Origin: Trypanosoma brucei
Lineage: Eukaryota
NCBI GenBank assembly: GCA_000002445.1
Contig: CH464491.1
Location: 160,001 to 224,000, forward strand
Direction: 5' to 3'
DNA: 64,000 bases
The notes beneath the pieces are model-generated. The model was not told where the DNA came from, ran no database searches, and saw only the letters and a list, made by a program, of their open reading frames with translations. The position numbers and the translations under genes were made by a program. Numbering within the stretch: position 1 is the stretch's first letter; each line of letters opens with the position of its first letter. Shown here in pieces: positions 3,879 to 53,612 of this stretch.

Positions 3879-5396
3879 CTACTGACCTAACCGGCGACCG
3901 GCCATTATACCGTCCAGTGAAGTGGACGAAGGTTGTGGAAAGCCACTGTTCTGACCAGCGAACTGTGCGATTTGTTGTTCCATCGTATTCAGTTGGGTCA
4001 CGCCGGTGCCCATATTGTCGAAAGGTGCATAACCCTGGGGAGCGCCCATTCCCATGCCCACAGCAGAGTGTGGAGCGCCACTGGACCACATGCCCGACTG
4101 TGCGGTCGGCATCGCTTGCGACAAAGGTGGTGATTGAGTCTGTTGAGCTGTTGGCGGCATATTGTACCATCCTCCACCGGAAGGGACACCGGCCGGTTGT
4201 TGCAAGGGTGCGGCTAAAGGCTGAGAATTAGCGTACGGGAATTGAGTCTGTGACGGCTGCTGGGGCCACTGCTGCTGTTGTTGCTGGGGCCACTGCTGCT
4301 GTTGTTGGGGCCACTGCTGCTGTTGTTGGGGCCACTGCTGGTGAGTTTGCAGCTGCTGGGCATTGTTGCTTGTAAAACCTCCAAATGGATCTACCGAGGC
4401 TGCCTGCTGTTGGGCAGGCATAGAGAACGCGCTAGGAGGCGCTGTGGCAGTTACTGGTACCGCGGGAGCTGACGCAAAAAGGTCATCCAGCATGTCGTGC
4501 CTAGGCTCTGCCTTTGGATGGGCCTCAACTGCATTGGAAGAAATATTATCTTCTGGTGGCGCCGTTGCCTTGATTTCAGAGGGCGCTGCACCCACGCCAC
4601 CAAACGCCCGACGTCTTTCCTCCTCCTCAAGTCGCTTCGCTAGCTCCATGTCGGCTTTTTCGGATGCCTCTTTTGCCGCGTTGCTGCGCCTTTCGAGTCC
4701 AAGCATACGCTGTGCCTCAGAAACAGTTATGCCGGCGCGGCGCTCCTCCTCACATTGCATGCGGGCGGCGAGCTCTCTATCCTCCTGTTCTTGCTGTTCC
4801 CGTGAAATTGTATAACTTGTAGTGGAGGCATGCTGAAATGTGTTTGAAGGTTGTGTGGCATTCGAACCCCCTTGGAATTGCGAAGAACCAAATCCACCAT
4901 ACATGTTGCTGCCAATGGACTCACCACTCAATTTGGCCCGTGTTGCTGCAGCTTTGTAACGCTCATCGCGCAACGTGGCAGGATCGCTGAGAAGGTCGAA
5001 GAGCTTCTTGGCACGCTCCCTCACAGAAAGACCGTGGTCCGCTCCTTGCTTTCCCGTATAGTAAAATGTCTGGGAGATGTGCTGCAAAGTGGGGAGTATC
5101 GAGCAAAGGGGAGGGAGTCCAACCTCAGGAACATTTCGCGCCAGGTGATCCAGAAGTAGAAGAGCTTTGTAGCAGGGTCTCCAAGACTTGTCGCGATTCT
5201 TCAAACGAAGCTTGATCTCCTCCATAATTTTTACAGTACCAGCTTGGAAGACACGACAAACATTGTCCATTTGCTCACCAGTCGGACCCCAAGGGTCCTC
5301 ATTTGTCGCTTCATGAACAAGTCGTGCATATTCGTTACCGCTGGTTTTCATACGAAGCATCTCTTTTGCCGCGTGGAGAGAAGTCGGAAATGACAT
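3879..5396 (-). CDS. Epsin-related ENTH-domain protein (EpsinR-like clathrin adaptor) with a Gln-rich C-terminal repeat region.
   Basis: The first ATG is at 5396 (MSFPTSLHAAKEM...); the track start at 5429 is a TTG. The N-terminus carries the ENTH signature: VHEATNEDPWGPTGEQMDNVCRVFQ resembles the epsin motif ATSNDPWGPS, and ...KALLLLDHLARNV follows. The C-terminus is low-complexity and Q/P-rich with a WPQQQQQ tandem repeat and NPF/DxF-like motifs. Confidence 0.8.
   Translation of the reverse strand: MSFPTSLHAAKEMLRMKTSGNEYARLVHEATNEDPWGPTGEQMDNVCRVFQAGTVKIMEEIKLRLKNRDKSWRPCYKALLLLDHLARNVPEVGLPPLCSILPTLQHISQTFYYTGKQGADHGLSVRERAKKLFDLLSDPATLRDERYKAAATRAKLSGESIGSNMYGGFGSSQFQGGSNATQPSNTFQHASTTSYTISREQQEQEDRELAARMQCEEERRAGITVSEAQRMLGLERRSNAAKEASEKADMELAKRLEEEERRRAFGGVGAAPSEIKATAPPEDNISSNAVEAHPKAEPRHDMLDDLFASAPAVPVTATAPPSAFSMPAQQQAASVDPFGGFTSNNAQQLQTHQQWPQQQQQWPQQQQQWPQQQQQQWPQQPSQTQFPYANSQPLAAPLQQPAGVPSGGGWYNMPPTAQQTQSPPLSQAMPTAQSGMWSSGAPHSAVGMGMGAPQGYAPFDNMGTGVTQLNTMEQQIAQFAGQNSGFPQPSSTSLDGIMAGRRLGQ
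4259..4345 (-). repeat. In-frame tandem repeat of about 21 nt (GGGGCCACTGCTGCTGTTGTT)x4. It encodes (Q)5-6WP repeats inside the epsin-like gene.
   Basis: Direct repetition of ggggccactgctgctgttgtt is visible at 4262-4340. The minus-strand translation shows QQWPQQQQQWPQQQQQWPQQQQQQWPQQ. Confidence 0.8.
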
Positions 5397-5709
5397 TAAC
5401 AACTGTGCACACTTTAAAGAAGATCGCAACTACTGGTGTTCGCTTTCACTAGCAAAGAAAGTAATGAAGAACTACCCTAGACTGTACGTGAAGCGGAAGC
5501 AGGGACAAAGAAAAAGGAAAAGAGGAGTAAACTAGCACATCTTTCCGTACTACCCGGTGTGCTCAACGGAACAGGGTGTGAGTGGGCACCCCACAAGAGT
5601 GCCAAGAATAAACACTGGCGGTTTAGGATCAACAAAGTAAAAGAGAAAAAGAACAAACAAGTGGGTCAGGTAACCTTAGTTGAAGACTCAATCCTCCCCT
5701 CTGCCCAGC

Positions 5710-6591: not shown

Positions 6592-8724
6592 TCAAACAAC
6601 AGAAGGGAAGAAAAAAAAATCGGACGCACCCTCAGAGTTCTTTCCCTCCCCTACGTTGGAACGTTTACCCACCACACCTGAAAGGCACAGCGTATCCAGG
6701 CACCTTCCGATGCAGATGTAAGCACTGGCAACCTCCACTCGTCCCTCCCACTCCCTGATATCAGCCAGTAAATGATTGGATTTTACGCTGACGCTCACGG
6801 GCCACGATGCCTCAAATGCACTAAACAGGGGAGGGGTGGGAATGGTAACTCTGTAAAGGGGACCAAAATGTGGCTCTTGGTGTCCCGGCACAACGGTCAC
6901 GCAGCAACCACGCACACTTTGATCCACCGATCCCCATTCTACATTTTGGAAGCGCTCTTGCGAGGCACCCAAATGTGCAATTGCATCATCCGCTGTCAGC
7001 CCTCCCGATTTCCTAAGGACACATTCCATGTAAGAATTAATTGCATCTCTTACTGCTTTAATAACAGCTATCTTAAAGGTGCCAAAAGAGGATCCATCAT
7101 CTTCGAAATTATCAGTGAGGTAGCTCAGGTAACTCACAGCAAGCCCCTCCGACGTACCACCCGCCGGGATCATAGCATTATGCGGAGTTGGTGCACAAAG
7201 TACATTAATCAAGTGATGCAGCTGCCGCTGAAAAAGGCACTCGACGAGCGCCGATTCGACCACGCAACGACCACCAAGAAAAACACTAATGATGTTGCGC
7301 ATCACTCTGCTGTCATTTCCGGACGCTTCTGTATATAAGGGGGCCAAGGACAAGAGAAATGATTGTGGTTCCACTCCACCACAGCGACGTCGGAGCCCGT
7401 CGCTGCTGCTAGAAAGTGCACACATCTTGAGCCGGCATTTGACAGGAGATAGTTTAAGGGACTCTAACGTCCTTGGGAGCGTACGAAATGTCAAGGCCAG
7501 TTGAGTCATAGTCGCACGACCAACGGCAGCCGCAACCAACACTGTTCTGCTGCAGTTTCCCAATGTTTCCATGTAGTACAACACCTCCCCACAGACCTTC
7601 CCCTCCACAGCAATGACCAGCAACTTCTCCTCCGCGCCTCTCACAACAGAAAGAAGATGCCGGATGCCAAGGTTATTTTCTCCCTCGTAAACAGTGGGGA
7701 AGCGAGAAACCAAAAGCAAAGCACCATCGTGCCGGTCTTCGCGCAGCAAAGTCCCTAAGGCATTGAACGGAGACAACGAGCAAGTCCCCAAGGTTGAATC
7801 TCGACCTGCACCACCGGCATGCAAAGTTGTGACGAACGCAACACCCGAAATAACGCATCCCACCCTTCCATGAGGCACACGTCTGTTACCAGCATCGTCC
7901 GACACCCTCCAAAGAAGACGGTCCACTAGGCCATGAAGGGATGTCACAACATCCTTCCCGGGTTCGCCGGCTCTCCGACTGGACAGCATAAGATGCGGGT
8001 AAACACGCACGAAACACTCAGCTGCCAGTGCAGCTACCTCAAAGCCACATGAAAAAGAGTCATACGCATAGGTTCGCCGAAGATATTCACGCAGCAAGAG
8101 ACTAGAGAGAAATCCAAACGGCGTGTCACAACCCCCGGAACTTTCCACTTCCACCAAGCCAGCGGACGACGCGACTTCAGCCAGCAGATCCTGTGGATCC
8201 ACGGGGTGGACGATGACGGAAAGCTTTTTAATAAAGTCTCCCAGAAGGTTTCGACACCAATGGGACTCGCGAACCTCAGTCGGGTTCACATTCCGCGTCC
8301 ACGGCAAATCATCACCCCAGCTCACGGAGGAGAAACTGTCCAGGAGTGAAGCACCCCGGGGAAGGAGAGGAACCCCACGCACTAGGGTGTGGAAAGCATG
8401 CAGCACGACATAGGCCACAAAGTCCACGCGACACATTACACCGATTGAAGCCTGATGCACCTCACAGTTCTTAATTATCACCTCACAAAGATACTTCTTC
8501 TCATCATAAAGGTATGGAAAAAGTTGTTGCAGAAGTTGCAAACCGCCCAACGCAACGCTACACTGCCCACTTTGCGGTGCTTCAACGAACTTGGCAACCG
8601 AATCACCGGGGTGGACTACATACGCCGAAACATGTTGCAGAAGCTCGTATACAGCGGCCTCCATCGCGGCAGCCGTCCAACAAACGCCTAGAGCGCGCAC
8701 TACTACCTTCTCCCCTTCTGCCAT
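6592..8724 (-). CDS. Large conserved hypothetical protein of about 710 aa.
   Basis: This is a long uninterrupted ORF. The first ATG is at 8724 (MAEGEKVVVRALGV...); the track start at 8787 is a TTG. I recognise no domain with confidence. Its coding-like composition matches the neighbouring genes. Confidence 0.6.
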   Translation of the reverse strand: MAEGEKVVVRALGVCWTAAAMEAAVYELLQHVSAYVVHPGDSVAKFVEAPQSGQCSVALGGLQLLQQLFPYLYDEKKYLCEVIIKNCEVHQASIGVMCRVDFVAYVVLHAFHTLVRGVPLLPRGASLLDSFSSVSWGDDLPWTRNVNPTEVRESHWCRNLLGDFIKKLSVIVHPVDPQDLLAEVASSAGLVEVESSGGCDTPFGFLSSLLLREYLRRTYAYDSFSCGFEVAALAAECFVRVYPHLMLSSRRAGEPGKDVVTSLHGLVDRLLWRVSDDAGNRRVPHGRVGCVISGVAFVTTLHAGGAGRDSTLGTCSLSPFNALGTLLREDRHDGALLLVSRFPTVYEGENNLGIRHLLSVVRGAEEKLLVIAVEGKVCGEVLYYMETLGNCSRTVLVAAAVGRATMTQLALTFRTLPRTLESLKLSPVKCRLKMCALSSSSDGLRRRCGGVEPQSFLLSLAPLYTEASGNDSRVMRNIISVFLGGRCVVESALVECLFQRQLHHLINVLCAPTPHNAMIPAGGTSEGLAVSYLSYLTDNFEDDGSSFGTFKIAVIKAVRDAINSYMECVLRKSGGLTADDAIAHLGASQERFQNVEWGSVDQSVRGCCVTVVPGHQEPHFGPLYRVTIPTPPLFSAFEASWPVSVSVKSNHLLADIREWEGRVEVASAYICIGRCLDTLCLSGVVGKRSNVGEGKNSEGASDFFFFPSVV

Positions 8725-14145: not shown

Positions 14146-14940
14146 TTACCTGAATATAATAAGATTCCTTTCACTATCAACAGACTTCTTCAGCTGCAGC
14201 TTTTCTTGTTCAGCGCTGTGGTCAACCTCAGCACAAGCTGGAACAAAATCCTTCGGTACTTTTAAAACTTTACCTGTTTCGAGCTTTATTTCTTTTGCTG
14301 GGCGTTTCATTTTGTTTTCCCAGTAAAGCTTCTCTTTCCGACGCTTCTCAAGCTCTTTTCGTTTGTTGTTTTCCGGTGGCTGAAAAACGATGGCATCACG
14401 ATCTCCGAAGAATAATTCATGGTAATGGCCGTTCGTTTGCTTCTTGGGGTCAAGCGAGCCGAGTACCGGGTTGTGCGGCATGGGTAGGGGTGTATTCGGA
14501 TCTATTGTGAACCTGATTATTGTACCATGATCACGACGAGGCGAGTGCTCGGTAGAAACCTCCACTCCAGCATCACGCTTCCCATTGGCCTTTCTTTTAG
14601 AAAAGGTAACGACGGCCTTTTTCTTATCAAGAACTTCCCTCATGTCGTCTGGAATCTTAGAGAAAATATGGTCTTCTTCGCGGGAAATATTCTCCAGTAA
14701 AGCAAGAGCATCTGAATGGAGAGAGACACCTTCTTTATCAGAAAGTGTTTTAACAGCACGAGAGACGAATGAAGTTACGTCGTCAATTCTTCTAGCATTT
14801 TCCCTGAATGCGCGTGCAGAAAGGATCCTTCGCATGACGTGTGCAGGGATATCAGCACCTGACGCGACAGCAGGGTCCTCCCCATTTTCATCCGCACTCA
14901 CTGAGCGGTTCATCTCGGGGCGCTCCTCCATCAGTTCCAT
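14146..14940 (-). CDS. Hypothetical protein of about 264 aa, basic and Lys-rich at the C-terminus. It is the first gene of the minus-strand transcription unit downstream of the retroelement.
   Basis: The first ATG is at 14940 (MELMEERPEMNRSV...); the track start at 15042 is a GTG. The frame is uninterrupted to 14146. I recognise no domain. Confidence 0.5.
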   Translation of the reverse strand: MELMEERPEMNRSVSADENGEDPAVASGADIPAHVMRRILSARAFRENARRIDDVTSFVSRAVKTLSDKEGVSLHSDALALLENISREEDHIFSKIPDDMREVLDKKKAVVTFSKRKANGKRDAGVEVSTEHSPRRDHGTIIRFTIDPNTPLPMPHNPVLGSLDPKKQTNGHYHELFFGDRDAIVFQPPENNKRKELEKRRKEKLYWENKMKRPAKEIKLETGKVLKVPKDFVPACAEVDHSAEQEKLQLKKSVDSERNLIIFR

Positions 14941-16731
14941 ACGCAACGATCTTTTCGTTAACCTTTCTCGATTATATTTGAAGTATATCCTCAACCTAAC
15001 CCTAGAATAAATTGGTAAGGCACAAGAGCTGCTTAGGGCCACCGGTCACTCCCGTAACTGCAAGAACAATATACTAATATACACACGTACATGCACGAAC
15101 AAAAAGTTCTGTTGACACTTACAGTTGCTTAAAATACTAAAACCAAAGACTGGGCTCTAAACCCAAATGCACACCGCGCCTTCACATAGAAACGCAACAT
15201 TTTAAGCCGCTGAGCATGAACAAATGATTGTGTCGTCTCAACGACACATGACCGAAGAGGTGCGCAAGGACGTCCAATGACACAACAAAAGAGTGACCAC
15301 CACAATGACAATCGTTGGGCGGCGCGTTTAATTGCATTACAACTACGTCGGTACCTTCGCACTAACCATACATTTTAGTTCAAGCCAGAGAGATAACCGT
15401 GTAAAAGAAAATTTCCGTCCTTTTTCGTGACAAACGAGAGAAAACAGCCAAAGGCAACGACTTTACAGGGGAAAGGACAGGCGCTGACGAGACCAACAAC
15501 ACCTAGACATTATGCAGTACCACCGCTGGGTCCTGGTAGCACCCTGTAACCCAACCCTAGCCTCACATGAACTGTCTAAAGCACAAAAGAACGCGGACGT
15601 CACCAGTTCCAACATTAAAAGGCTATACAATAGGCTTTCAGTGATCTATTCCTATCACTTGTTTGTCTCTCTTGCTCATCCGTGGGGGAGGGGGGAACAG
15701 ACACCAATACACACCTTTCAGTCGCTATCGCGAGTCGGACTCAATTCTGCCGCTATCGTGCATGGTTAAAAGTCCCCCTGTTGTCCAAATCCCAATCGGG
15801 TTTCACGATTTCGTTGACACTGCGGCGCCGGAGGTGCAATATCTATTACACAAAGTAACGTCCCCTCCGCATCAGACTCATTCTGCGGTTATCTCATACC
15901 ACTTTTTCGCTCTAAGTCTTCGTTATTTTTTTTTATACTAGCTCTTCTTCTTTCCGTCTTTCTCCCTTTCGCGGGTGTGTGAGAGTAACTCACTGTACAT
16001 GGCCTTTCGTGTGCGATCGTTGCGGATAGTGCTCACGTTCCCAACCCCTTACACAGGGCTAAGAAAGCGCGATGCAAGTGGAGAGCGAGTGCGGGATTGG
16101 TGACACCCCTGTGCCGCGAGGAGAAGCTATGCAGGCTTTCGCGAAGTCGCATACATCGTACGATCGGCCCCTTTACAAAACATTGTACACGAGAGTGTTC
16201 GAACCAGCAGCGGTTCAGTAAGTGTTACAACGTTTCCTTCCATTCGTTGCGCCGGCTTATGCCTTCGAGTGTCGCGTGGAAGCGTTGGCCCCTTCACTAT
16301 CAAGTGCACGCTTGATCCGATTGCACGGTGTGGCGCGCACACCGGGCACACCGCCGCTGCCGCGGGCGCCCTCTCGGCACACGAAGTCCATCGGTGCCAG
16401 CTTCCTGCGCTGGAGCCTAAATCCCTTCCCACTGCCATATGCTCCGCAGCGCCCTCCGGAACAACCCCCTTGACTAAACACTCTCTGGCATATACTGAAT
16501 TATGCATCATGATCCACAAGTCTTTCCTCGACTTGACTATAACGCTTGATCACTCCGAGGGGCTGGATAATCACAACAGTTCCGCCCCCACCTTGTACAG
16601 TATCACGTTTCAGCTTCTTTTGTAAGGTGACTGGAGGGTGCACACCGAAGTTGGGCAGGCAGAGGTTGCGTTGGCACTGCCTCTGCTTACGGTTTTTTTC
16701 CAGGGGAAACAATTCACCGTTAGTCCGTATC

Positions 16732-17131
16732 TTTTTTTTTTAATTCCCATCACAACACCATGTCGAGCAGCGGGTGCCAGCGCCTACGCCGTGTATAGCC
16801 CGTACGTTTCGTGCTAATCTCTTTCCTTGAGATAGCCCGGCGCAGTTCCACTGAATCCCGCGCGACGACGGGCTGGGATTCTCTTCCACATCACCGGACA
16901 GCAGCATCTTAGTGCGGATGATACTGCTGATGACACGCTGGCACGTGCCCAGGAACCGATAAATGAAAAACGGTGTCCCAGCATAACGCTGCTGATCCCT
17001 GTGCTGTATGATGCCGTAGCCGGAGCACAGCAGTGTTCCCCATGAAAGGAATACTGCTGGCTCTTGGCTTCCCCCGATGATACGGGATACTGGACCCTGG
17101 CACCACGTTGAGGTGGCCGGCATCACCAGGG
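16732..17131 (-). mobile_element. RIME-like short non-autonomous ingi derivative of 400 bp. It has the Pr77 hallmark, about 320 nt shared with the ingi 5' end including a degenerate 2A-coding start, a 70-nt unique tail and an A10 tail.
   Basis: The minus-strand read from 17131 is CCCTGGTGATGCCGGCCACCTCAACGTGGTGCCAGGGTCCAGTATCCCGTATCATCGGGGGAAGCCAAGAGCCAGCAG, the ingi/L1Tc/RIME Pr77 signature. Its next roughly 240 nt are near-identical to 20743-20960 of the adjacent element. It ends ...GGGAATT(A)10 at 16732-16741. The track ORF 16740..17162 (-) carries MLLSGDVEENPSPSS. Confidence 0.7.
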
Positions 17132-20100
17132 CGTACGTTTCGTACGAGTCGACCCCGTACATTGAACCCTGTGATGTAGATGCGATATTGGAATACTCCT
17201 CGTTTTTGGCTGATCTACCTTGAGTGAGTCGGCACGCACACTGCCAGCTGTGAGTTCTCGGTTGGAAAAAGATCCTGGAAATGCATACGAAATTCGGGGA
17301 ATCGCCGCATACTGATGTTCATGGTGCATCCGCAGAAACAAATCCGTGCTTGCTCACCTTCCATATTTCCGGACTTGATTGACACCAGCCACGAGCTCTG
17401 CATTCACGCCATCTCGTTGTAATGCCAGCGTGTGTCAGAGTGTTTTTCACTGCCGTAATGTTCGTACTGATTGGTGGAGCTTGTGGCCATGTAAACCGAT
17501 CTTTGTTCGGGTTAGCCTCTCAGGCACAGCGGTGTTACTCGCGGGTTGATATTTCGCAGCAACCATTCACAATGCAAGGAGACGGCGATGCGCAAGCTCT
17601 CTTCCACCGTTCGCCAAGTGCCTCCTCTCGCGTCACGCCGCTGGAAGTGAATACGAACTGCAGCCCAATGCTCGCTTTCCTGCTTTCTATCTTTAGGACT
17701 GGTCGCCATAGCTCTCGTGCAGGCGGTTCGATAGCACTCAATGAGCCATTTGCTAGCGCAGTGGGGAGAGACGGCGAGTTGTTGAAAATCGACAGTTTCC
17801 TCATCGTTTTCTCCCGCATGGAGAGGTTCTTTAGTACACTCCGCGCACCAAGCTCCAGAACAATGCATTCCGCTCTGTAACTGCATGAGAGTTTCCCTGC
17901 TCCTGTCTTGGGTGCACAAATCAGCGTGTTGTTTCTATAGAGCAGGGCAGCTGCCCCGGACTTCTCACCGAGGGACACGGATCCATCAGTCCACAATTCG
18001 TAGTGCTCTCGTCGCGGTGGCTCCTTCCCCCTCCGTGCAAAATGCCGTGCAATCCACTTTTCGGAAGCCTCCCTTTTGACATCGTCAGGGTCATCAGCGC
18101 ACACAGGCTTTATCTGCGTGTGAAATATCGGTCGGCAGCTGTGGTGAAGCGTCGATGTCTCTAGTGGGTGCTCGCGTGGCTCAATGTGGAGGTGGGGGTA
18201 GAACCGCATGATGCGGGAATGTAAGACTCTGACTGGATGTTTGCTGTGGTATACTTCCTCAGCACTGCGCCGCAAACATCCGCCTCGTGACTCACACATC
18301 AGCATGAATTTCATGCTGCGCACAAGAGTGGCCGTCTTGAGTGGCAGGAGGTTTGCTTCCAGCAGAGAGTCCTCTTTGCGCGTCCCATGCTGTATGCCGG
18401 CTGTGATGCGACTGGCTTTGTGTTGTGCTGCTGCAAGGAGGTCGCGACTTCGTTTTGAAGCGTCCCAGTACCATACCTCAATGCCATGCATGGTGTGTGC
18501 CTGTACGAGTGCTAGATAAAAAGCTCTCAGCACTTGTCGTCTTGGCCCCCATGTAGAAGCTGAGATGGCTGCTATCTGCAGTAGTCGGAAGTCCATCTTG
18601 CGTCTCGTTTCGGCCGCATGTGTTGCCATCCCCTGCAGACTCTGGAATGTTACTCCAAGAAGCTTTAGTGTCCTGTCAGCTCCTATTCTTTTGCCGTCGA
18701 GTTGTAATGTAAGGGAGTGCCGCTCTATACACCCGAAGAGTGTGCACTTTGTTTTCGCTACGTTGACAGACATGAAGTACTCTTTTGACCACTGTAACAC
18801 CACGTTTAGACCGCATTGTAGTGTGTGGTTGATGACATCCCTCTCTGTGTGCCTCGCAAGTATCGTTAGGTCGTCTGCAAAGAATCCGTGCTGCAGTAAC
18901 GGCACTTCTGCAAGGCGTTGGCTCAACGAGTTCATGACAATAATGAACATGATTGGGCCAAGGACAGTTCCTTGTGGCACTCCTCGCTCAAATGTTCTGC
19001 TTCTGGAAAGCTTCTCCTTGAATCTCACTCTGCCAGTTCGGTTACTCAGAAATGATACGCACCACTTCACAATGTGGGGTGATACCTTCATTCTGTGCAT
19101 TTCCCTCGCAATTTTGTCGTGGTCTACTGTATCAAATGCCTTCTCGTAGTCAACGAATACAGCACCCGTACGAGATTGGTGCGTGGGGCGGCAGAGGGCA
19201 GCGCGGACGTGCAGGAGTTGTTCGAGCGTTGAGCATCCGGGGCGAAAGCCTGATTGCTGCGGCGTCAGCTGGGACTCAACAGTGTCTCTAAGTCTCGCGG
19301 CAATTATGCGCTCCATGACTTTGCAGAGACAGCTCGTGAGCGTCACAGGCCTGTAAGAATCGAGGTCCTCCGCCTTTTTTCCGGCCTTCAGGATGGGGAT
19401 GATAACACCAGTCTTCCATGCAGGCGGCACGACTCCCGTTCGTAGGCTCTCATTGAATAGCCTCAGAACAACATTCAGCGCTGTTCTACCGAGATGTTGC
19501 AGTGCCTCGTTGTATAAGCAATCAGGTCCGGCTGCGGATCCACTCGGTAGCAGTTTGATCGATCTCCGTAGTTCAGCCATCGTGATGGGACTGAACTCAC
19601 TCGCTATCGTCTTTATTGGTGCCGGTGGGTGTGAGTCGGTGTGCCTTCTTGCGCGGGACGAGTACAGTTTAATGAACCTCTCAGCTTGACGGTAGTCCGT
19701 GATGGCCGCGTTATCAACAAGTACAGCCGGTGTGGTTAGTGGTCGTGGCGCATATACCTTCTTGAAAATGTGCCAACTGCAGCGGTCTGACACCGCAAGT
19801 CTGGAGTATAGCGTGCTCCATCTCTTCTTTGTGATACGGTCCAGGATCTGCTTACGCGTGGCTACCAACTTTTCCCCTCGGTGGGAGGGTCCGCATCCAG
19901 CGATCTCTTCATCGAGTTTCGCGAGCTCAGGTGTCCAATGTGGTGACGTTGCTCTGCAGCCACGGGGGACGGAGACCTTCGTCGCAATGCGGATGGCGGA
20001 GCTCAATTTCTGTTCCAGGGTGTTGACGTTCTTCTTTCTACCAATTTTCCTGCAGTACTCGTCAACCTTCAGACGGAAATTCCTCCAGTCAGCTTTTAGC

Positions 20101-20965
20101 CATGCGTACATGGGCTTTCGAGGCCGCGGGCAGCTCAGCGCATCTGTGTCGTCTCCAACGATAACATCGAAAAATATGTGATGGTGATCGCTATTGGGAG
20201 AATGAAGCGATGTCCACGTGTACACTGTGCAATTCCTTGACAGTGTCACATCAGGGGTGGACTCCCCGTGGTGGCGCGCGTTCCTGGTGCACTCACCAGT
20301 GTTGCAGACCAGAAACTGGTTGTCAATGCGCCACTGTGTGAGGGTTTCACCCTTGGTATTTGGTGGGCTCGCGCGATCCGATGCCAACGCGTGTGCGTTA
20401 GCGTCTGCACCGATGAGCTGTGAACTTTCAGTCGTCAGAAGCGTATCTAGGTCAGTTGCCGTGAAGGTGTGTTTTGGTGGGATGTATGCCGACGTGACAG
20501 TCAGCGCCGTTCCACGTGCAAGGTGAATTGTTGCATGCACTTGTTCAATGCGACCAATAACATGCATACCGGTCTCGACTGGTAGGTCCTCCCTCACTAG
20601 TATTGATACACCACCTCCTTTGCAGTTACGAGCTATTCCGTGATGTTGGTAGCCAGCAACGCTAAAGCAAGCCGCCTCTCCAGGCGTCATCCTTGTCTCG
20701 CTCAACAGACAAAAGGCGATCCGCTCATCAACAAGGGTTTTGTGGAGTGCTAATCTCTTTCCTTGAGATAGCCCGGCGCAGTTACACTGAATCCCGCGCA
20801 ACGACGGGCCGGGATTCTCTTCCACATCACTGGACAGCAGCATCTTAGTGCGGATGATACTGCTGATGGCACGCTGGCACGTGCCCAGGGACCGACAAAT
20901 GAAAAACGGTGTCCCAGCAAGACGCTGCTGATCCCTGTGCTACATGACGCCGTTGCCGGAGCAAA
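17132..20965 (-). mobile_element. ingi/L1Tc-clade non-LTR retrotransposon copy of about 3.8 kb. It is 5'-truncated just inside Pr77 and has no poly(A) of its own before the next element.
   Basis: The single ORF encodes 2A, AP endonuclease, reverse transcriptase (FADD) and RNase H (WTDGS). Its 5' region is near-identical to the short element at 16812-17040. The conserved Pr77 block is not seen at its 5' end. The 3' boundary is assigned at the point where the Pr77 of the next element starts. Confidence 0.8.
17535..20843 (-). CDS. Retrotransposon polyprotein of 1102 aa. It comprises an N-terminal 2A peptide (DVEENPGP), an apurinic/apyrimidinic endonuclease, a reverse transcriptase and RNase H.
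   Basis: The ATG at 20843 gives MLLSSDVEENPGPSLRGIQCNCAGLSQGKRLAL... RT motifs are present: ...DYEKAFDTV..., GVPQGTVLGPIMF and FFADDLTIL. The RNase H motif is ELWTDGSVSLGEKSGAAALL. There are no internal stops. An overlapping frame at 17512..17919 (-) holds Cys/His-rich remnants, possibly the C-terminal zinc-finger region out of frame. Confidence 0.9.
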   Translation of the reverse strand: MLLSSDVEENPGPSLRGIQCNCAGLSQGKRLALHKTLVDERIAFCLLSETRMTPGEAACFSVAGYQHHGIARNCKGGGVSILVREDLPVETGMHVIGRIEQVHATIHLARGTALTVTSAYIPPKHTFTATDLDTLLTTESSQLIGADANAHALASDRASPPNTKGETLTQWRIDNQFLVCNTGECTRNARHHGESTPDVTLSRNCTVYTWTSLHSPNSDHHHIFFDVIVGDDTDALSCPRPRKPMYAWLKADWRNFRLKVDEYCRKIGRKKNVNTLEQKLSSAIRIATKVSVPRGCRATSPHWTPELAKLDEEIAGCGPSHRGEKLVATRKQILDRITKKRWSTLYSRLAVSDRCSWHIFKKVYAPRPLTTPAVLVDNAAITDYRQAERFIKLYSSRARRHTDSHPPAPIKTIASEFSPITMAELRRSIKLLPSGSAAGPDCLYNEALQHLGRTALNVVLRLFNESLRTGVVPPAWKTGVIIPILKAGKKAEDLDSYRPVTLTSCLCKVMERIIAARLRDTVESQLTPQQSGFRPGCSTLEQLLHVRAALCRPTHQSRTGAVFVDYEKAFDTVDHDKIAREMHRMKVSPHIVKWCVSFLSNRTGRVRFKEKLSRSRTFERGVPQGTVLGPIMFIIVMNSLSQRLAEVPLLQHGFFADDLTILARHTERDVINHTLQCGLNVVLQWSKEYFMSVNVAKTKCTLFGCIERHSLTLQLDGKRIGADRTLKLLGVTFQSLQGMATHAAETRRKMDFRLLQIAAISASTWGPRRQVLRAFYLALVQAHTMHGIEVWYWDASKRSRDLLAAAQHKASRITAGIQHGTRKEDSLLEANLLPLKTATLVRSMKFMLMCESRGGCLRRSAEEVYHSKHPVRVLHSRIMRFYPHLHIEPREHPLETSTLHHSCRPIFHTQIKPVCADDPDDVKREASEKWIARHFARRGKEPPRREHYELWTDGSVSLGEKSGAAALLYRNNTLICAPKTGAGKLSCSYRAECIVLELGARSVLKNLSMREKTMRKLSIFNNSPSLPTALANGSLSAIEPPARELWRPVLKIESRKASIGLQFVFTSSGVTREEALGERWKRACASPSPCIVNGCCEISTRE

Positions 20966-21380
20966 GCACTGCTCCAAACAAGAGGAACAATGACGTTCCG
21001 TCTGTGCAGAAAGCGAGTTTATGGGCCTTGGGGCCGCGGTGGTGTGGGTGATGTTTTCGTTGAATGAAAAGGCCCCGCCGCCTCATTCGCGTTGCGCGGG
21101 AGGAAGATCAAACCACCTCAGATGTGAATGTTTTTGCTTACTGAAATAAAGCTGTGCTGTGCCAGTCTCGGCGTGTCCGGTGTTTGCGCACCTGAAACTC
21201 CCCTTTGTGGTGCAATATCTTCTTTAGGGACTGTTCGAGTATGTCGGGGTTTTCAGGGACAGCGCGAACCTACTGCGCGCGGTGGATTGGGCTCATTTTC
21301 CAAGGCGGAGTGGTGCCGGTTCTTGGATGCACGGCCGGTCCGCAGCTGCGAGTTCGTCAGCGCCAGCCCTTCGGACCTCA

Positions 21381-21390
21381 GGGGGGGGGG
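21381..21390 (+). repeat. G10 homopolymer inside the strand-switch region.
   Basis: cctca gggggggggg aagtt is read directly. Confidence 0.9.
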
Positions 21391-22049
21391 AAGTTAGGGC
21401 CTGTTTCCCTTTCTAAATCCCCTCAACTACTGTTGGTTAAAAGAATGCAGGGAGTAGAACCGGAGGGGGGAAGCGTCGGGTCCGCCCCGCGTGAAAGCGG
21501 CTGGGGCGTACGACAGGCTTCGCGAGCTGGGGGCGGTTGTGTTTCGCGTGGGTCCGTTATATTTACCCCTTCCGTTTGTATCTCCACTAAAGAGAAAGTG
21601 GTGTCCCGATCCACACTGTATTGCTTCGCCGTGTGCAATTGCTGTGCCGCTGGGGAGTGCCTTACGGCGTCGTGGGACCGACGTGGCTCGGGGACTTAAG
21701 GTGCGCCCTTAAACACCGTGGCTGCTGCCTGGTCATGTGTTTATGCTTTGCGATGTGAGGCATTGTGGGGTCGGGCCTTTATGCGGACCCCTGAGGCGTT
21801 AGTATGCTTGTTTCTCTCGATCCTCTCTGTTTGTGCGCGTATGTTTTCCCCCTCCATGTTTTAGGGAGGGCGGTGGATGGGGAGATGTCACTGAACAACG
21901 TAGCTGTTGATTATTGCTGCTATGTTATTTTATTTTCCTAAGGCCACATTGTGGTGCCTAAATACCTGGGTTATCGTCACGCGCATTTATCATTTTTCTA
22001 TTTAGCCTTTATAGCTGATCCTTCTTTCAAATACATTTGCTTGTTCTAG

Positions 22050-22054
<5 letters not shown>

Positions 22055-22110
<56 letters not shown>
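22055..22110. repeat. (TA)n microsatellite of about 28 units.
   Basis: tatata... is read directly from about 22055 to 22110. Confidence 0.95.
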
Positions 22111-22113
<3 letters not shown>

Positions 22114-24484
22114 TGCAAATGGCATCTTGGTGCACTTGTTCCGTTGCCGGGGTGATTATTTTCAGAGCGTATATACACCGCTTGTGGGTGATCGCGGTTT
22201 CAAGCCGGTTTGCTTTTGTTTTTGAGGACATGTATTGGGGGTGTTACCACTTTTTTGTTAATTGATATTGTGCACTTTTTTGTTTCGGTAAAAAGAAAAA
22301 AAATGACAGTGATATTATTTTTTTTTTTCGCTTACCTTCTATACATATATATATACTTGTCGGTGATACGTGTTTGTGTTTGGTGCTGATAATGCTTGCG
22401 CTGGGAGTTTCTTTTGTTGGTGTTTGTTTTCTCTGTAAATAAGATCGGCTTTCATTTCACTAATAGTCCTTGTAATATATCTTTTTTTTCTTTTTTTTCT
22501 AGGGGGCCATTAGTGCATGTAAGGAGCACTCTTAAGGGAACTTTTGTCAGCAGAATAATCAATGGTAAGTGTTGTACTTTGGCCATTGCGAGTGCGCTGG
22601 ACTTTGGGAGCTGGTACTGATACTTCTGTCTTGACGGATTCAAAAAAAAGACAAAAAACTTCACAACTTTTTCCGAAAGAAAGTGAAGTTTATCCTCTCA
22701 AATCAAGTGCGGATCTGTCGCTTTGCACACGCGCTGGTTGACAATAGATCGATGAGTGACATGTCTGATCACCCTGTGGTGCGGGTCTTTATTAATTGTC
22801 TTGCTCTTTATTGATTCATCTGTGCTTTGGCGACGTAGGCGGAGTAGAGGATTGCCAATTCCGTCCTTTGGAATGGTTTACCGTCTTATTTTATTTTGTT
22901 AACCCAGTTGTCTTATGTGTAATCCTTTATCGGCCGGTGCGAGCTGTGGGTGGGATGCCGATCGTTTTTTCTTCTGCAACGGCAGAGAGTAGTGCTGATG
23001 GATATCGGTAAAGGGTGTTTGCTGCGTTGGTGAAGTGAGTATGTCGATGGAAGGGTACGCATATAATTAATATATCTGGTGCTTTTTCTTCTTATTGAGT
23101 AGCTTTTGAGAGCTCGGGACGGTAAAGTTAGTTGCCGCATTAGGTGTATGTTGTTCTGGTTAATTTCTGTTCAGATCCTTACGGTAAGCACGAAACCATT
23201 ACACCTGGTATGCTTTAATCCGTTAATTCAGGCGGTTCCACATTTGGTTCAATCACTGAAATACAGCTGAATTTTTAAATTCTTGTTTTAAAATTACCTC
23301 ACTTAATAAAAGGAAGGAAATGACACATCAAAGTAATGGAAATGCTGCATTGTACACCTGTGGGTGAGCTGATGAAGTAATAAAATATGGACCCGCGCGT
23401 TAAAGCCGTTTGTTTCCATCAGCAATGCCCTCGTGTCGGTTGTTTTCCCTTTTTGTCTTTCCATTATTCCACTGTAAGTAGTTTGCTTGAATTACGGTTT
23501 GATAAAAGGAACTGATTCACCTGGGTGTCTGCCGTAGTCGGAAGGGTGGGCGGAAACGTTGCTGTTTTCTGTGAGGTAGTTAACTCTTTGCTGCTATAAT
23601 CTTTACAATACCGTTTTAAGATGTGTATGTTATTTTTAGGTGTAGTTTCCTGGCATTTTTGTGGACAGATGATGTTTGTCTACGTTTATGGAACCAGTAA
23701 GTAGGAAAAGATGTATGAATTAACAAAAGGTATTTGTGCATCAGTGACTAGCGTTTTTTCCTCGTGTACAGTAATGTCTCTCTGGTACAGTTATTAATTG
23801 TTAGAGCGCGGTGCTGTGATCTCGGGTGTAACAACTGAATCTTTTTTTTGTTTCCTTGCTGAAGTGTATGGCTCTTTCTGGAATAACACATATGTAATTA
23901 TGCCATTGCTTACAGTGGAAGTAGGGGTGGCTAACATAATGATTTGTCCTTTTGATAACACTGTATTGAAGGAAGAATTATCGCTCTTTTAGTTTTCCTG
24001 TTCTTTGTCTGTGGTCTTGTAAGTTGGTGATATTGTGTATTAAGCTTTCAATTTTTCTTTATAATTTGCAGTAGGCAGTTGTCTCTTGCGGTCATTTGGC
24101 CTACGGTATAGGATGTGTTAAGGTGTAGCTCACGTAAGTAAAGTTCATGATCGAATTCTTTTTGATTTTCGTTTTCACACATTTGATCCTTAAAGACTTA
24201 CACATGCCCTCTTTTTCATTATTATTATCTTGTTCATGAGTTGATGCGACATTGGTGGGTAGGGTTAGATGACCTTTTCTCTTTGACGCAATATGTCGCG
24301 GTTGTTACGTTCGCTTAGACACCAACGTCTCTTGTTTGTTATTTATGTATATTTGGGTACAACCGTTTTTCATTCGTTTCCCTTTGTCTTATAGTAACTT
24401 CATATATATATATTAATTTTAACGAGTTTGTATTTTTGTTTTCCTTACAATTATTGTAACCTACCATTCGGTTTATCACCCATA

Positions 24485-24549: not shown

Positions 24550-25050
24550 ATGTCTGACGATGAGGGACAGTTTGCCGAAGGCGGAGCGCAGGTGGGCTCT
24601 CTGACGTATCCGATGCAGGCAGGCGCTCTGAAAAAGGGCGGCTACATTTGCATTAATGGACGTCCGTGCAAGGTAATCGATCTTTCAGTGTCAAAAACTG
24701 GAAAACACGGTCATGCAAAGGTGAGCATCGTTGCCCTTGACATTTTCACCGGAAACAAGATGGAAGATCAGGCCCCCTCAACTCACAACGTTGAGGTGCC
24801 CTTCGTGAAAACTGCAACGTACAGCGTACTGGACATTCAGGAAGATCGTGAAGACCCCAGCAAGCCAGCTCACCTTTCGCTCATGGACGATGAGGGTGAG
24901 ACTCGGGATAACCTGGACATGCCTCCCAACGCGGAACTCGCAGGGCAAATCAAGGAACAGTTTGATGCAGGAAAGGACGTTTTGGTCGTTGTTGTTTCTG
25001 CTATGGGAATTGACCAGATTCTCAGTTTCAAGAATGCAGCTGAGCGATAA
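24550..25050 (+). CDS. EIF5A: Eukaryotic translation initiation factor 5A (eIF5A, hypusine-containing).
   Basis: The ORF starts at an ATG and encodes 166 aa. It carries the hypusination loop [12 protein letters not shown] ([13 protein letters not shown]) and the overall eIF5A fold signature (GRPCKVIDL..., C-terminal OB region). Confidence 0.95.
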
Positions 25051-30390: not shown

Positions 30391-32838
30391 TTGTTTACTT
30401 TTAAAGAGGATTAAAGATGAGAGGCAAATGCTAAGGAAGGTTGGGGCGACGCTTAGTATTGAGTTTTGGATGACGTGGACAACGTGAATAGAGGAGGTAA
30501 TGTGATTCCCGCCGTGTGGCAACCTGGGATTGTGGCAATCCAAAACTGTGTTTCTACTCACGCAGGAGGAGGGAGGGGAACCGCAGATGGGAGATGAGGC
30601 AACCCGAGCAGTGGCGACATTTTTGATACACTGACCGACAAAACCTCTTGAACTGGAAGAGTAGCGCGAACCGGTGATCACACACTAATTGGAACTCAGT
30701 CATCATTGACCGCGCTTCCGAATGCCCTTTTTTATATGGGTCCGAATTCTGCACTTCCCTGGTTTAAGCTTGTGGTTGCATACAGGCGCATTTTCCCTTT
30801 TATTTCCCGCCCTATTTTTTCACTATTTCGCTGCTGTGTACAGTTTTATCATTCTGAACCGCGCGTTTGATCGCAACCTGTCGTAGTTCATTGTGCCGAC
30901 TATATTGTTGTAGGACCAATTTTTGGCAACAAAACGATGGGAGGAAAAGAGAACAGGTGGAGAAGGAATGCGCTCGACAGTGGGCGCATCAGAGGAGGAA
31001 CTACCACACAAGGTGGTTTGAATGTGGATGGAAACCGTCTCTGTTTGTGGTAGCGAAGGTGCTTCTCCAACGCTTCCTCTACCGTCTGTCACTCACCTTC
31101 TGATATGCAAAAGGGGCAAAAAAAAACACCAATCGGTAGCACATGCATTTTTTTCTTTTAAGGGGGGGGGGAGTCGTAGAGTGTGGCAATGACGTTCCAA
31201 TTTGCGTGATGCCATACCAACACTTCTTTTTTTTTTTTTGCCCTATTGACGCCTGTAAAACCTTTTCGAGGTCACTATGGTGGAAGAAAGGGTGCCGTTG
31301 GTTCTCTTTTCCATGCCACGGGCCATTCGTGATGGAATTGGAACTACCTCCCCTTGAGCGTGCTCCCCTGTCGACTTTGTTGTGACATGCGGTGCCAGAG
31401 TGTGTTAGTGGTTGTTGAACCAAAGAAATATGAAACTACGTGTTTGGACCTTTTAAGATTTTTGTTCCAGCTTAGCTTTTTCGGTCTTTGTTCTCCTGCT
31501 GCTTTTGGTGGCTGTACTGGGGTGCAGAAGTGCGTTCTTTTAGTGTGTTTCTAACCCCCAGAGACCTGTTGTCAGAGAGAGGAAAGAAAGAGCATACACA
31601 TATATCTATATATCTGCATTTATATGTATATGTATATATGTGTGATGACCTTTATGTGTTGTACACACTTAAGCACCGACGCGCAAACGCATGAGCACAC
31701 CCGCGAGGATGGGTGTGGGCTCATTTTACACATGTTGTCTAGGTTAGGTGGTGGGAGAATGGAGGAGGTGAAGGGAAGGGAGGAAGAAGAGGAATGGGAG
31801 AAGCGGTGAGAAAGAGTAAGTGAAGTGTGCTGGAGTAGTAACCTTCGAGAGCATGGTGTGCGACGTTGTGCCTCTTATGCAACATTTATAACTAAGGGCT
31901 TCGTAACTTCCTTTTTGTGTTGGTCCGGTTAGGCCGGTGAGCGGGTGAGAGAATTAACCATGAAAAGGAGAAAACAGGAAGAGGGGAAAAGGAAAAGGAA
32001 ACAGCAAAATATAAGAAGACTCGCTAATAGTGGTACAGAAGTGGAGTGGATTGAATTGTAAAAAGAAAGCAGAAAAGAAAGATGAGAGGTGCTTATTTAA
32101 AAATATGTAATAACGGGAAATGTGCACTCTCTCGTGCCAAAATACTTGTCCTCACCGATACGCACGATGGGCGAGAACGGAACATGAAGATCCTCGGAGG
32201 AAGTTAGGTAGATTAATAATGGGAAGGTTGATGCTCAATAAGAAACGTATGATATGAGAAGCGATGGGAGAAGAAGAAACAGGTAAAGGGGAAAATAATG
32301 GTAACTAAAGGGCTGACTGTCGCGAATGAATGACTGAAATTCAGCAGCTCTGTTTTCGGCTCGTGCGTGGGGGGGGAATGGAGGGAAGGGGTGACGTTGG
32401 CAGGAGGAGGTGTGGAGTCTGTGAGTGCGTGGACCTAACACTGCGCCGTCTGGAGGGTTCGGTATTTCGGTTCTCAATTCTTCGCGCCTTTTTCTTCCTT
32501 GCTTTTCTCCCGTATTTTCTCCCGAAACTTTTGGGGGGATGAGGAGGAGGAGAGTTGGAGTACAGCAGCCTCTTTTGTGCTTCCCTTGCAGTTGCTTATT
32601 GATGTTTTTTGTTTTTGCTGAAGGACAGCCTCCTGAATGTTACAGTTTCCCTTTTGCGTATCACGTCTATCTTGAGAGTGAAACAAATTGTATCTTTGAG
32701 CACCCAATAGTTTTGCGAGGGATATTCCCCAGAGCCTCGTCTTTTGCCTCGTTTTCTTTCCTCTGCATCCTTTTCCTCCACCTGTGTACTTTCCTTTACA
32801 GCAAGGTGTGCGGTGGTCATTTGTCGCTGAGTGTGTGC

Positions 32839-53597: not shown

Positions 53598-53612
53598 CCC
53601 CCCCCCCCCCCC
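53598..53612 (+). repeat. C15 homopolymer, the longest homopolymeric C or G run in the window. It is intergenic.
   Basis: agctgtaccc cccccccccc ccgcattc is read directly. Confidence 0.9.

What the first reader, a model, noticed from the sequence alone, without database searches (positions are those of the whole stretch)
20966..22300. The strand-switch region holds a GC-rich block, a G10 tract and a (TA)28 microsatellite
The 21.0-21.8 kb block is markedly GC-rich (runs such as ggggccgcggtggtgtggg and ccccgcgtgaaagcggctggggcg) compared with other AT/T-rich intergenic DNA in the window. It is followed by G10 (21381) and a perfect (TA)28 (22055-22110). No ORF here looks coding, and I could not see tRNA A/B boxes or snRNA signatures. 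GT/G-rich promoter-like elements and nucleosome-excluding (TA)n tracts are plausible components of a kinetoplastid bidirectional start region. Alternatively the GC-rich block is a relic of an older degenerate element or pseudogene into which ingi inserted.
Basis: partly seen in the sequence, partly recalled or inferred. Interest (0 to 1): 0.5.

Follow-up and report, generated by a model that had tools for sequence, protein, structure and literature searches.

The report
Trypanosome divergent transcription start region
The GC-rich block, G10 tract and (TA)28 repeat lie in an already catalogued divergent RNA polymerase II start region of Trypanosoma brucei chromosome 11, upstream of the eIF5A gene: the block and G tract fit published start-region features, and the TA repeat is an ordinary variable microsatellite.

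Summary
All three observed features are real. The window is T. brucei chromosome 11 (v4 coordinate = window + 160,000). The features lie in the divergent strand-switch region between Tb11.50.0001 (-) and eIF5A Tb11.03.0410/Tb927.11.740 (+). Kolev et al. 2010 already list this region as a pair of divergent Pol II transcription units.

The 888-bp block (20993-21880, GC 0.57) holds the most GC-rich 300-nt window of the 64 kb. It is not ingi, not a pseudogene and not a structured RNA. Its old ORF annotation (Tb11.03.0420) is frameshifted in sister strains.

The G10 lies on the coding strand. GGGGGGGGGG is the top coding-strand 10-mer at the 5' end of T. brucei start regions (Wedel 2017). Its length varies between strains (G10/G8/G6).

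The first trans-spliced + strand RNA starts at 22444, so initiation must lie upstream of that point.

The same strand-switch region in T. cruzi, T. theileri and T. melophagium also has a GC-rich core at the skew inflection, without alignable sequence. Phytomonas and Leptomonas lack it.

(TA)28 is a polymorphic microsatellite (28/11/8 units). The promoter reading is largely supported; the relic reading is not. Novelty is low.

The parts
15926..20992 (-). ingi-type non-LTR retrotransposon. It splits the strand-switch region and forms the left border of the finding. Its poly(A) appears as a T9 run at 15926-15934, and it is 5'-truncated by about 77 nt.
   Evidence: The 1102-aa ORF 17535-20843 (-) matches RVT_1 (8e-46) and Exo_endo_phos_2. 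The 5' region repeat 20747-20992 matches 16811-17056 at 91%. The element is present at the same place in T. b. gambiense and L002.
20993..21880 (+). GC-rich core of the divergent strand-switch region, with + strand G/T skew. Proposed to be the 5' end of the transcription start region of the eIF5A unit.
   Evidence: GC is 0.571, and the top-ranked 300-nt GC window of the 64 kb lies here. G+T is 0.56-0.62 on the + strand. It is about 99% identical between strains. No ORF, protein or RNA family signal was found. A positional counterpart exists in T. cruzi, T. theileri and T. melophagium.
21241..21699 (+). Former gene model Tb11.03.0420 ('hypothetical protein'); a chance ORF, not a gene.
   Evidence: Kolev Table S2 gives 181241-181699 with no detectable transcript. 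It is frameshifted with in-frame stops in L001 and L002. It has no Pfam match, no homologue and no record in the gene collection. 3.8% of shuffles of the block give an ORF this long.
21381..21390 (+). G10 homopolymer on the coding strand of the + unit; a known sequence hallmark of T. brucei start regions.
   Evidence: GGGGGGGGGG is found 132 times on the coding strand against 17 on the non-coding strand in region 1 of 199 start regions, and 7-27 times in regions 2-5. It is G8 in T. b. gambiense and G6 in L002.
21462..21470 (+). Second G tract (GGAGGGGGG), which is longer in sister strains (GGGGGGAGGGGGG).
21881..22443 (+). AT-rich, T-rich leader between the GC-rich core and the first trans-splice acceptor. 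It holds (TA)28, A8, T11 and a polypyrimidine tract.
   Evidence: GC is 0.30-0.44. Start-region-type T/GT-rich 10-mers lie on the + strand at 22214-22316.
22055..22110 (.). (TA)28 microsatellite, length-polymorphic between strains.
   Evidence: It has 11 units in L001 and 8 in L002.
22444..23192 (+). Tb11.NT.12, the first trans-spliced and polyadenylated + strand transcript. It sets the downstream limit for the + strand start site.
   Evidence: Kolev Table S7 gives 182444-183192 (+). An AG preceded by a polypyrimidine tract lies immediately before 22444.
23313..24460 (+). Tb11.NT.13, the second novel + strand transcript upstream of eIF5A.
   Evidence: Kolev Table S7 gives 183313-184460 (+). 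An AG lies before 23313.
24550..25050 (+). eIF5A (Tb11.03.0410 / Tb927.11.740), the first annotated gene of the + unit.
   Evidence: Translation; 100% identical to Trypanozoon eIF5A; gene ID; Kolev Table S14.
14146..15042 (-). Tb11.50.0001, the first annotated gene of the - unit.
   Evidence: The poly(A) site 173777 equals window 13777. Listed in Table S14. Orthologues lie next to the strand switch in T. theileri and T. cruzi.
15043..15925 (-). Left flank of the strand-switch region, between the - strand gene and the ingi. It has - strand polarity and no GC-rich core.
   Evidence: GC is 0.43-0.49 and GC skew is negative. The start-region 10-mer CCCCCTCCCC lies on the - strand at 15685.

Best explanation
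The finding is the + strand half of a divergent RNA polymerase II transcription start region of Trypanosoma brucei chromosome 11. This start region is split by an old ingi insertion.

Shown. The locus is a divergent strand switch that is published as a pair of divergent Pol II units. The + strand RNA is already being trans-spliced at 22444. The 0.89-kb block is non-coding, is not retroelement-derived, and is the GC maximum of the whole 64 kb. It is G/T-skewed on the + strand and carries the coding-strand G-run that is the top sequence hallmark of the 5' ends of T. brucei start regions.

Inferred. Pol II initiates in a dispersed, mainly rightward manner within or at the edge of this block. It then transcribes through the AT-rich leader that holds (TA)28 and T-rich tracts. 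The RNA upstream of the first splice acceptor is discarded. The GC-rich composition plus G tracts, rather than a fixed sequence, would set the chromatin state (H2A.Z/H2B.V nucleosomes) and the direction of initiation. The reason for this view is that the same strand-switch region in T. cruzi, T. theileri and T. melophagium keeps a GC-rich core at the skew inflection with no alignable sequence, and that the G tracts change length between strains while a G-rich dose persists.

The (TA)28 is a slippage-prone microsatellite with no required length.
For: Identity of the locus. The eIF5A poly(A) site, the Tb11.50.0001 poly(A) site and two splice acceptors all fit an offset of exactly 160,000.

Published start region. 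Kolev Table S14 lists Tb11.50.0001 (-) and Tb11.03.0410 (+) as 'Divergent' units, and the paper reports 5'-triphosphate enrichment at every divergent unit.

Limit on the start site. The first spliced RNA starts at 22444.

G10 hallmark. Wedel Dataset EV1; the tract is on the + strand. The paper places initiation at the 5' end of the H2A.Z region and shows that GT-rich elements drive directional transcription.

Composition..

Not a gene, element or RNA..

Strain conservation. The block is about 99% identical between strains, against about 96% for 22100-23100.

Cross-species architecture. The GC-rich core is the top-ranked 300-nt GC window of the 20-kb locus in T. theileri and in two T. cruzi assemblies, and ranks 11 of 649 in T. 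melophagium. In each it sits at the G+T skew inflection, with synteny of the flanking genes confirmed.

Precedent. In the Leishmania chromosome 1 strand-switch region, the initiation segment has the highest GC of the region and a variable-length poly(C) tract, and is otherwise polymorphic.
Against: No nucleotide-resolution start-site, Pol II, H2A.Z or H4K10ac data for this locus could be read here; the published support is at the level of the whole strand-switch region.

Apart from G10, few of the published start-region 10-mers occur in the block itself. Most hits lie in the AT-rich leader at 22214-22316.

G>=10 runs also occur inside the + unit, so the tract alone is not diagnostic.

G+T skew holds for the entire + unit, not just for the block.

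The G10 shrinks to G6 in one strain.

The T. brucei block is three times longer than the cores of the other species, so part of it could have another origin.

Phytomonas and Leptomonas lack a GC-rich core at the same strand switch.

Initiation inside the ingi, reading rightward, is not excluded.
Confidence: 0.65

Rival explanations
1. Compositional by-product. The GC-rich core and G tracts are a passive result of mutation or repair bias at a strand switch (for example transcription-associated asymmetry, R-loops or biased gene conversion). They have no promoter role, and initiation is set by chromatin alone.
For: There is no sequence conservation between species. G-tract lengths drift between strains. 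CpG observed/expected in the block (0.96) equals background (0.92). T. brucei transcription can start without defined motifs, according to work cited in Wedel 2017. Phytomonas and Leptomonas lack the core.
Against: The core is the GC maximum of the locus in three independent Trypanosoma lineages, at the same relative place. Synthetic G/T-rich elements are sufficient for directional transcription and H2A.Z deposition. The block is better conserved between strains than the neighbouring part of the strand-switch region.
Confidence: 0.2
2. Relic of an older degenerate mobile element or pseudogene (DIRE, RHS, SIDER-like) into which the ingi inserted.
For: The block lies directly next to an ingi. 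It is three times longer than the cores of the other species. It holds a 152-aa ORF that was once annotated. Retroelements are reported to accumulate in strand-switch regions (abstract of PMC4748587).
Against: There is no nucleotide or translated similarity to the ingi in the window. There is no Pr77-like 5' end: the alignment score is below the shuffle mean. No protein hit at E<=1 was found in any of six frames against 5.8 billion proteins. There is no Pfam match and no second copy in the 64 kb. The ORF is broken in sister strains. A GC-rich core exists at the same place in species that have no ingi there.
Confidence: 0.08
3. An unannotated non-coding RNA gene, or a replication-origin or centromere-type element, rather than a Pol II start region.
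For: The block is GC-rich, conserved between strains and non-coding. The - strand fold has z = -1.97. [quoted passage not shown] From memory, T. brucei origins map to strand-switch boundaries.
Against: There is no Rfam or tRNA match. Fold z is -0.83 on the + strand, and 1 of 20 shuffles folds as well on the - strand. Kolev 2010 found no stable transcript from the block (Table S2). No tandem array other than the 57-bp TA repeat is present in the 64 kb.
Confidence: 0.05

Closest known systems
T. brucei Pol II transcription start regions with GT-rich promoter elements (Wedel et al. 2017, PMC5579346; Kolev et al. 2010, PMC2936537)
   Same: Both lie at the 5' end of a polycistronic unit in a divergent strand switch. 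Both have G and T enriched on the coding strand, and a G10 on the coding strand, which is the top 10-mer of region 1. The locus itself is listed as divergent units in Kolev Table S14.
   Different: The block is GC-rich (0.57) rather than simply GT-rich, and it holds few of the other published 10-mers. Histone marks and promoter activity were not tested here. An ingi splits the two halves of the strand-switch region.
Leishmania chromosome 1 strand-switch initiation segment (Puechberty et al. 2007, PMC1805754)
   Same: Both are the highest-GC segment of the strand-switch region. Both have a homopolymer C/G tract kept in position but variable in length, with poorly conserved primary sequence around it.
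   Different: The Leishmania segment is 72 bp, against about 0.9 kb here. It is in a different genus and chromosome. The Leptomonas and Phytomonas orthologues of the present strand-switch region show no GC-rich core.
Sequence-specific 75-bp core promoters of T. brucei strand-switch regions (Cordon-Obras et al. 2022, cited in PMC11796357)
   Same: That work describes two oppositely oriented unidirectional promoters between divergent units, as summarised.
   Different: The paper and its motifs were not available, so no motif comparison was possible.
Metazoan CpG-island dispersed promoters
   Same: Both are a GC-rich island of roughly 1 kb at a constitutive, dispersed start region.
   Different: CpG observed/expected (0.96) is not above the genome background (0.92), because the genome is not CpG-depleted. 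Briggs et al. 2018 note that no CpG islands have been detailed in T. brucei strand-switch regions.
ingi / RIME / DIRE retroposons
   Same: The block is adjacent to an ingi, and both are found in a strand-switch region.
   Different: There is no sequence, ORF or 5'-hallmark similarity.

Membership tests
T. brucei divergent Pol II transcription start region | Lies between two divergently oriented polycistronic units | tested here: met
   ORFs are on - up to 15042 and on + from 24550. Kolev Table S14 lists both units as 'Divergent'.
T. brucei divergent Pol II transcription start region | Primary (5'-triphosphate) transcripts or nascent RNA start here | tested here: inconclusive
   Only region-level support from the literature is available: enrichment is reported 'at every divergent transcription unit'. 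The first spliced RNA at 22444 puts the start upstream of that point. No nucleotide-level track was available.
T. brucei divergent Pol II transcription start region | Coding-strand enrichment of G- and T-rich 10-mers, above all G10, at the 5' end | tested here: met
   G10 lies at 21381 on the + strand. Further listed 10-mers lie on the + strand at 22214-22316, and only one lies on the - strand.
T. brucei divergent Pol II transcription start region | H2A.Z/H2B.V, H4K10ac and H3K4me3 enrichment, and a Pol II peak | not testable with these tools
   No ChIP-seq tracks could be read. Wedel's datasets give no coordinates.
T. brucei divergent Pol II transcription start region | Orientation-dependent promoter activity in a reporter assay | not testable with these tools
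   This requires an experiment.
ingi/RIME/DIRE retroposon | Pr77-type conserved 5' end | tested here: not met
   The local alignment of 20991-21100 to the complete 5' end found at 17055-17131 scores 12, against a shuffle mean of 14. The reference 5' end was recognised from memory, not from a database.
ingi/RIME/DIRE retroposon | Nucleotide or translated similarity to ingi ORFs | tested here: not met
   blastn and tblastx against the ingi in the window gave nothing below E 0.28. The six-frame protein search gave no hit.
ingi/RIME/DIRE retroposon | Dispersed copies in the genome | not testable with these tools
   No trypanosome genome could be searched by DNA. The only result is that no second copy occurs in the 64-kb window.
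Protein-coding gene (former Tb11.03.0420) | Reading frame kept in close relatives, with homologues and a transcript | tested here: not met
   There are frameshifts and stops in L001 and L002, no homologue, no Pfam match and no detectable transcript (Kolev Table S2).
Structured non-coding RNA gene | Match to a known family, or a fold more stable than shuffles | tested here: not met
   Rfam gave none and ARAGORN gave none. Fold z is -0.83 on the + strand and -1.97 on the - strand, with 20 shuffles each.
Microsatellite | Perfect short tandem repeat whose copy number varies between strains | tested here: met
   (TA)28.5 at 100% matches; 11 units in L001 and 8 in L002.
T. brucei centromere | Long array of AT-rich repeats of about 150 bp | tested here: not met
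   TRF on the whole window finds only three short arrays, the longest 80 bp.

The most novel reading that the evidence does not exclude
In the genus Trypanosoma, divergent strand-switch regions may carry a 'GC island': a few hundred bp that form the local GC maximum, sit exactly at the strand-skew inflection and hold length-variable G/C homopolymers. This island would be kept by selection on composition rather than on sequence, and would act as the actual signal for dispersed initiation and H2A.Z deposition. It would be a functional analogue of CpG-island promoters in an organism said to have none. Here this rests on one orthologous locus in three independent lineages.
Probability: 0.3. Interest if true: 0.45.

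Novelty: already known. Interest (0 to 1): 0.2.

Why it matters
The finding mainly matters as a clean negative. It is not a new gene, RNA or element, but a catalogued Pol II start region whose G-run hallmark is already published.

Three small points add value. First, the old gene model Tb11.03.0420 is shown to be spurious. Second, the + strand start is narrowed to the 1.45 kb between the ingi end (20992) and the first splice acceptor (22444). Third, the same strand-switch region keeps a GC-rich core in T. brucei, T. cruzi and T. theileri/T. melophagium without any alignable sequence. If that last pattern holds genome-wide, it would give a simple compositional predictor of trypanosome promoters.

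Tried and rejected
- **Diverged ingi 5' end.** By eye, 20993-21067 (including 'ggggccgcggtggtgtggg') looked as if it might be a diverged ingi 5' end. A local alignment with shuffles rejected this.
- **Target-site duplication for the ingi.** None of at least 7 nt was found.
- **Six-frame protein search of the block.** It gave nothing.
- **Exact look-up of the Tb11.03.0420 product.** It is not on record.
- **T. congolense orthologue, the best outgroup.** Its eIF5A is absent from the clusters. The SNF2 neighbour exists only as an N-terminally truncated protein with no contig held (P0139). No comparison was possible.
- **T. vivax.** Synteny is broken upstream of eIF5A, so the locus is not comparable.
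- **T. grayi and T. rangeli.** Their contigs end about 0.5 kb upstream of eIF5A.
- **Alignment of the block to strand-switch regions of other species.** Only chance-level hits were found.
- **Canonical G-quadruplex motif.** None occurs in the block.
- **CpG enrichment.** None was found.
- **Cordon-Obras 2022 promoter motifs and Siegel 2009.** Neither paper is held.
- **Wedel datasets.** They hold no start-region coordinates.
- **Other collections.** The phage, plasmid, E. coli and prokaryote collections were not used because they cannot contain this sequence.
Full report
**1. What is in the sequence**

All three parts of the observation are real.
- TRF reports a perfect 28.5-copy AT/TA array at 22054-22110. 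Shuffles of the window never give even (TA)10.
- A G10 lies at 21381-21390 on the + strand. It sits inside the GC-rich block, not after it.
- The G10 is not unique. G>=10 runs also occur at 31162, 33686 and 39207 on the + strand, and a C15 lies at 53598. That is 11 matches against 0.11 expected.
- The block 20993-21880 has GC 0.571. The rest of the strand-switch region has 0.375, and other intergenic DNA has 0.40-0.47.
- The most GC-rich 300-nt window of all 2548 in the 64 kb (0.627, starting at 21251) lies in the block. So do the twelve top non-coding windows, and 22 of the 26 non-coding windows with GC >= 0.55.
- ORFs run on the - strand up to 15042 and on the + strand from 24550, so this is a divergent strand switch.
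- There are no tRNAs and no Rfam matches at gathering score. At E<=10 only chance hits to the TA repeat appear.

**2. Where the window comes from**

- The first + strand gene is eIF5A, 100% identical to the Trypanozoon protein. It is Tb11.03.0410 / Tb927.11.740.
- Supplementary tables of Kolev et al. 2010 (PMC2936537) give the eIF5A poly(A) site at 185145 and the Tb11.50.0001 poly(A) site at 173777.
- The same tables give two novel + strand transcripts, Tb11.NT.12 (182444-183192) and Tb11.NT.13 (183313-184460).
- Subtracting 160,000 places both transcript starts immediately after an AG preceded by a polypyrimidine tract. The window is therefore Tb927_11_01_v4:160001-224000.

**3. Borders of the block**

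- To the left lies an ingi-type retrotransposon on the - strand. It has a T9 run at 15926-15934 and a 1102-aa ORF with reverse-transcriptase and endonuclease domains.
- Similarity between its 5' region and a second copy of the ingi 5' region (16811-17056) ends near 20990-20992.
- That second copy continues 75 nt further, to a CCCTGG... terminus. I recognise this terminus from memory as the conserved ingi/RIME 5' end.
- The corresponding stretch right of 20992 is not a diverged version of it. The alignment score is 12, against a shuffle mean of 14.
- The ingi and the block are both present, about 97-99% identical, in T. b. gambiense DAL972 (L001) and in assembly GCA_003543875.1 (L002).

**4. 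What the block is not**

- It has no similarity to the ingi or to anything else in the window.
- A concatenated six-frame translation found no protein at E<=1 among 5.8 billion.
- The 152-aa ORF 21241-21699 is the former gene model Tb11.03.0420. Kolev Table S2 lists it among ORFs with no detectable transcript.
- That ORF is frameshifted and interrupted by stops in both sister strains. It has no Pfam match and is not on record as a called gene.
- 3.8% of shuffles of this GC-rich sequence give an ORF at least as long.
- RNA folding is no better than shuffles: z = -0.83 on the + strand and -1.97 on the - strand, with 20 shuffles each.
- There is no canonical G-quadruplex motif and no CpG excess, at 0.96 against 0.92 for the background.
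- There is no centromere-type array in the window.

**5. What it most likely is**

- Kolev Table S14 lists Tb11.50.0001 (-) and Tb11.03.0410 (+) as the first ORFs of two 'Divergent' Pol II units. The paper states that 5'-triphosphate reads were enriched at every divergent unit.
- Because + strand RNA is already trans-spliced at 22444, + strand initiation must lie upstream of that point. That means the 1.45 kb between the ingi and 22444, or inside the ingi.
- Wedel et al. 2017 (PMC5579346) place initiation at the 5' end of the H2A.Z domain. They also show that G/T-rich coding-strand elements are sufficient for directional transcription and H2A.Z deposition.
- In their Dataset EV1, GGGGGGGGGG is by far the most enriched coding-strand 10-mer in the first fifth of 199 start regions. 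It is found 132 times on the coding strand and 17 on the non-coding strand, and 7-27 times in the other fifths.
- The G10 here is on the coding strand of the eIF5A unit. The block is G+T-skewed on that strand throughout, at 0.56-0.62.
- The skew changes sign exactly at the ingi. The element therefore sits between the two halves of the start region, and the block is the + strand half.

**6. Variation between strains**

- The G10 is G8 in T. b. gambiense and G6 in L002.
- A second tract 80 nt downstream is GGAGGGGGG in the window but GGGGGGAGGGGGG in the other two strains. G-richness persists while the lengths drift.
- The TA repeat has 28, 11 and 8 units.
- (TA)8-12 tracts occur elsewhere in plain intergenic DNA of the window. 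This is an ordinary microsatellite with no evidence of a required length.
- The block is about 99% identical between strains. The stretch 22100-23100 is about 96% identical.

**7. Comparison across species**

- The flanking genes are syntenic in T. theileri and T. cruzi. The same divergent strand switch exists in T. cruzi (L007, L009), T. theileri (L006), T. melophagium (L014) and Phytomonas (L012).
- In T. theileri and in both T. cruzi assemblies, a core of 200-300 bp with GC 0.55-0.67 is the single most GC-rich 300-nt window of the whole 20-kb locus. In T. melophagium it ranks 11 of 649.
- In each of these species the core sits where the + strand G+T fraction jumps from about 0.3-0.4 to 0.6-0.78.
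- None of these cores aligns with the T. brucei block.
- Phytomonas and Leptomonas have no such core.
- T. vivax has lost synteny upstream of eIF5A.
- T. congolense DNA was not obtainable.

The closest precedent is the Leishmania chromosome 1 strand-switch region. There the initiation segment has the highest GC of the region and a poly(C) tract that is fixed in position but variable in length, within otherwise polymorphic sequence (PMC1805754).

**8. Verdict**

- The promoter-region reading is largely supported for the GC-rich block and the G tract. It rests on position, published region-level start-site data and a published sequence hallmark. It has not been shown at nucleotide resolution.
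- The TA repeat is best regarded as a neutral microsatellite.
- The relic-element reading finds no support, although genome-wide copy number could not be checked with these tools.
- The locus and its hallmark are already in the literature, so novelty and interest are low.
- The one lead worth a genome-wide test is the sequence-independent GC-rich core seen at this strand switch in Trypanosoma.

Noticed in passing
window 16801-17143 (within the ingi, - strand): A 319-bp copy of the ingi 5' region (16813-17131) sits inside the ingi, flanked by a 12-nt direct repeat CGTACGTTTCGT (16801-16812 and 17132-17143). It carries the only complete CCCTGG... 5' terminus in the window. I recognise this from memory as Pr77-like; Pr77 is a reported Pol II-dependent internal promoter. 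It lies on the - strand about 2 kb upstream of the first - strand gene. The outer ingi lacks these ~77 nt. The region is rearranged in T. b. gambiense and L002, with an inverted copy, and 17832-19378 is absent in L001. It might supply - strand transcription, but this is speculation.
   Followed up: partly
window 22444-23192 and 23313-24460 (+): Two trans-spliced, polyadenylated 'novel transcripts' (Tb11.NT.12 and Tb11.NT.13 of Kolev 2010) fill the space between the GC-rich block and eIF5A. They hold only short ORFs (at most 75 aa), and they do not appear in Kolev's tables of novel transcripts with homology or peptide support.
   Followed up: partly
window 22100-23100: This part of the strand-switch region, covering the start of Tb11.NT.12, is clearly more diverged between strains (about 96%, down to 89% in 22300-22399) than the GC-rich block (about 99%) or the 1.4 kb before eIF5A (about 99%).
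   Followed up: no
L006, L007, L009, L014, L013: The number of tandem eIF5A copies varies. There is 1 in T. brucei and T. cruzi L007, 2 in T. cruzi L009, 3 in T. melophagium and 4 in T. theileri. In Leptomonas pyrrhocoris the two eIF5A copies lie on the other side of the strand switch, which there falls between eIF5A and the SNF2/RING gene.
   Followed up: no
L004 5428-7800 (T. vivax): Upstream of T. vivax eIF5A the neighbouring genes are on the + strand and are unrelated to the T. brucei - strand genes. A 2.4-kb GC-rich stretch (0.53-0.66) with no called gene, holding a 304-aa ATG ORF (6701-7615), precedes an AT-rich 2.2 kb.
   Followed up: partly
L003, L010, L011: The contigs of T. equiperdum OVI, T. 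grayi and T. rangeli all end 0.5-2 kb upstream of eIF5A. This strand-switch region is a recurrent assembly break.
   Followed up: no
window 31162, 33686, 39207 (+); 53598-53612: Further G10-G11 runs lie on the coding strand inside the + unit, and a C15 (G15 on the - strand) lies at 53598. A canonical G-quadruplex motif lies at 32369-32391 (+). Whether any of these marks an internal start site was not examined.
   Followed up: no
window 4261-4340: A 21-nt tandem repeat (3.7 copies, 94% matches) lies inside the 516-aa - strand ORF 3879-5429, which is also one of the most GC-rich coding stretches of the window.
   Followed up: no
L001 7690-8037 (about window 22245-22592, - strand): The T. b. gambiense annotation calls a 115-aa gene on the - strand inside the AT-rich leader. 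It overlaps the first + strand splice acceptor and has no Pfam hit, so it is probably another spurious model.
   Followed up: no
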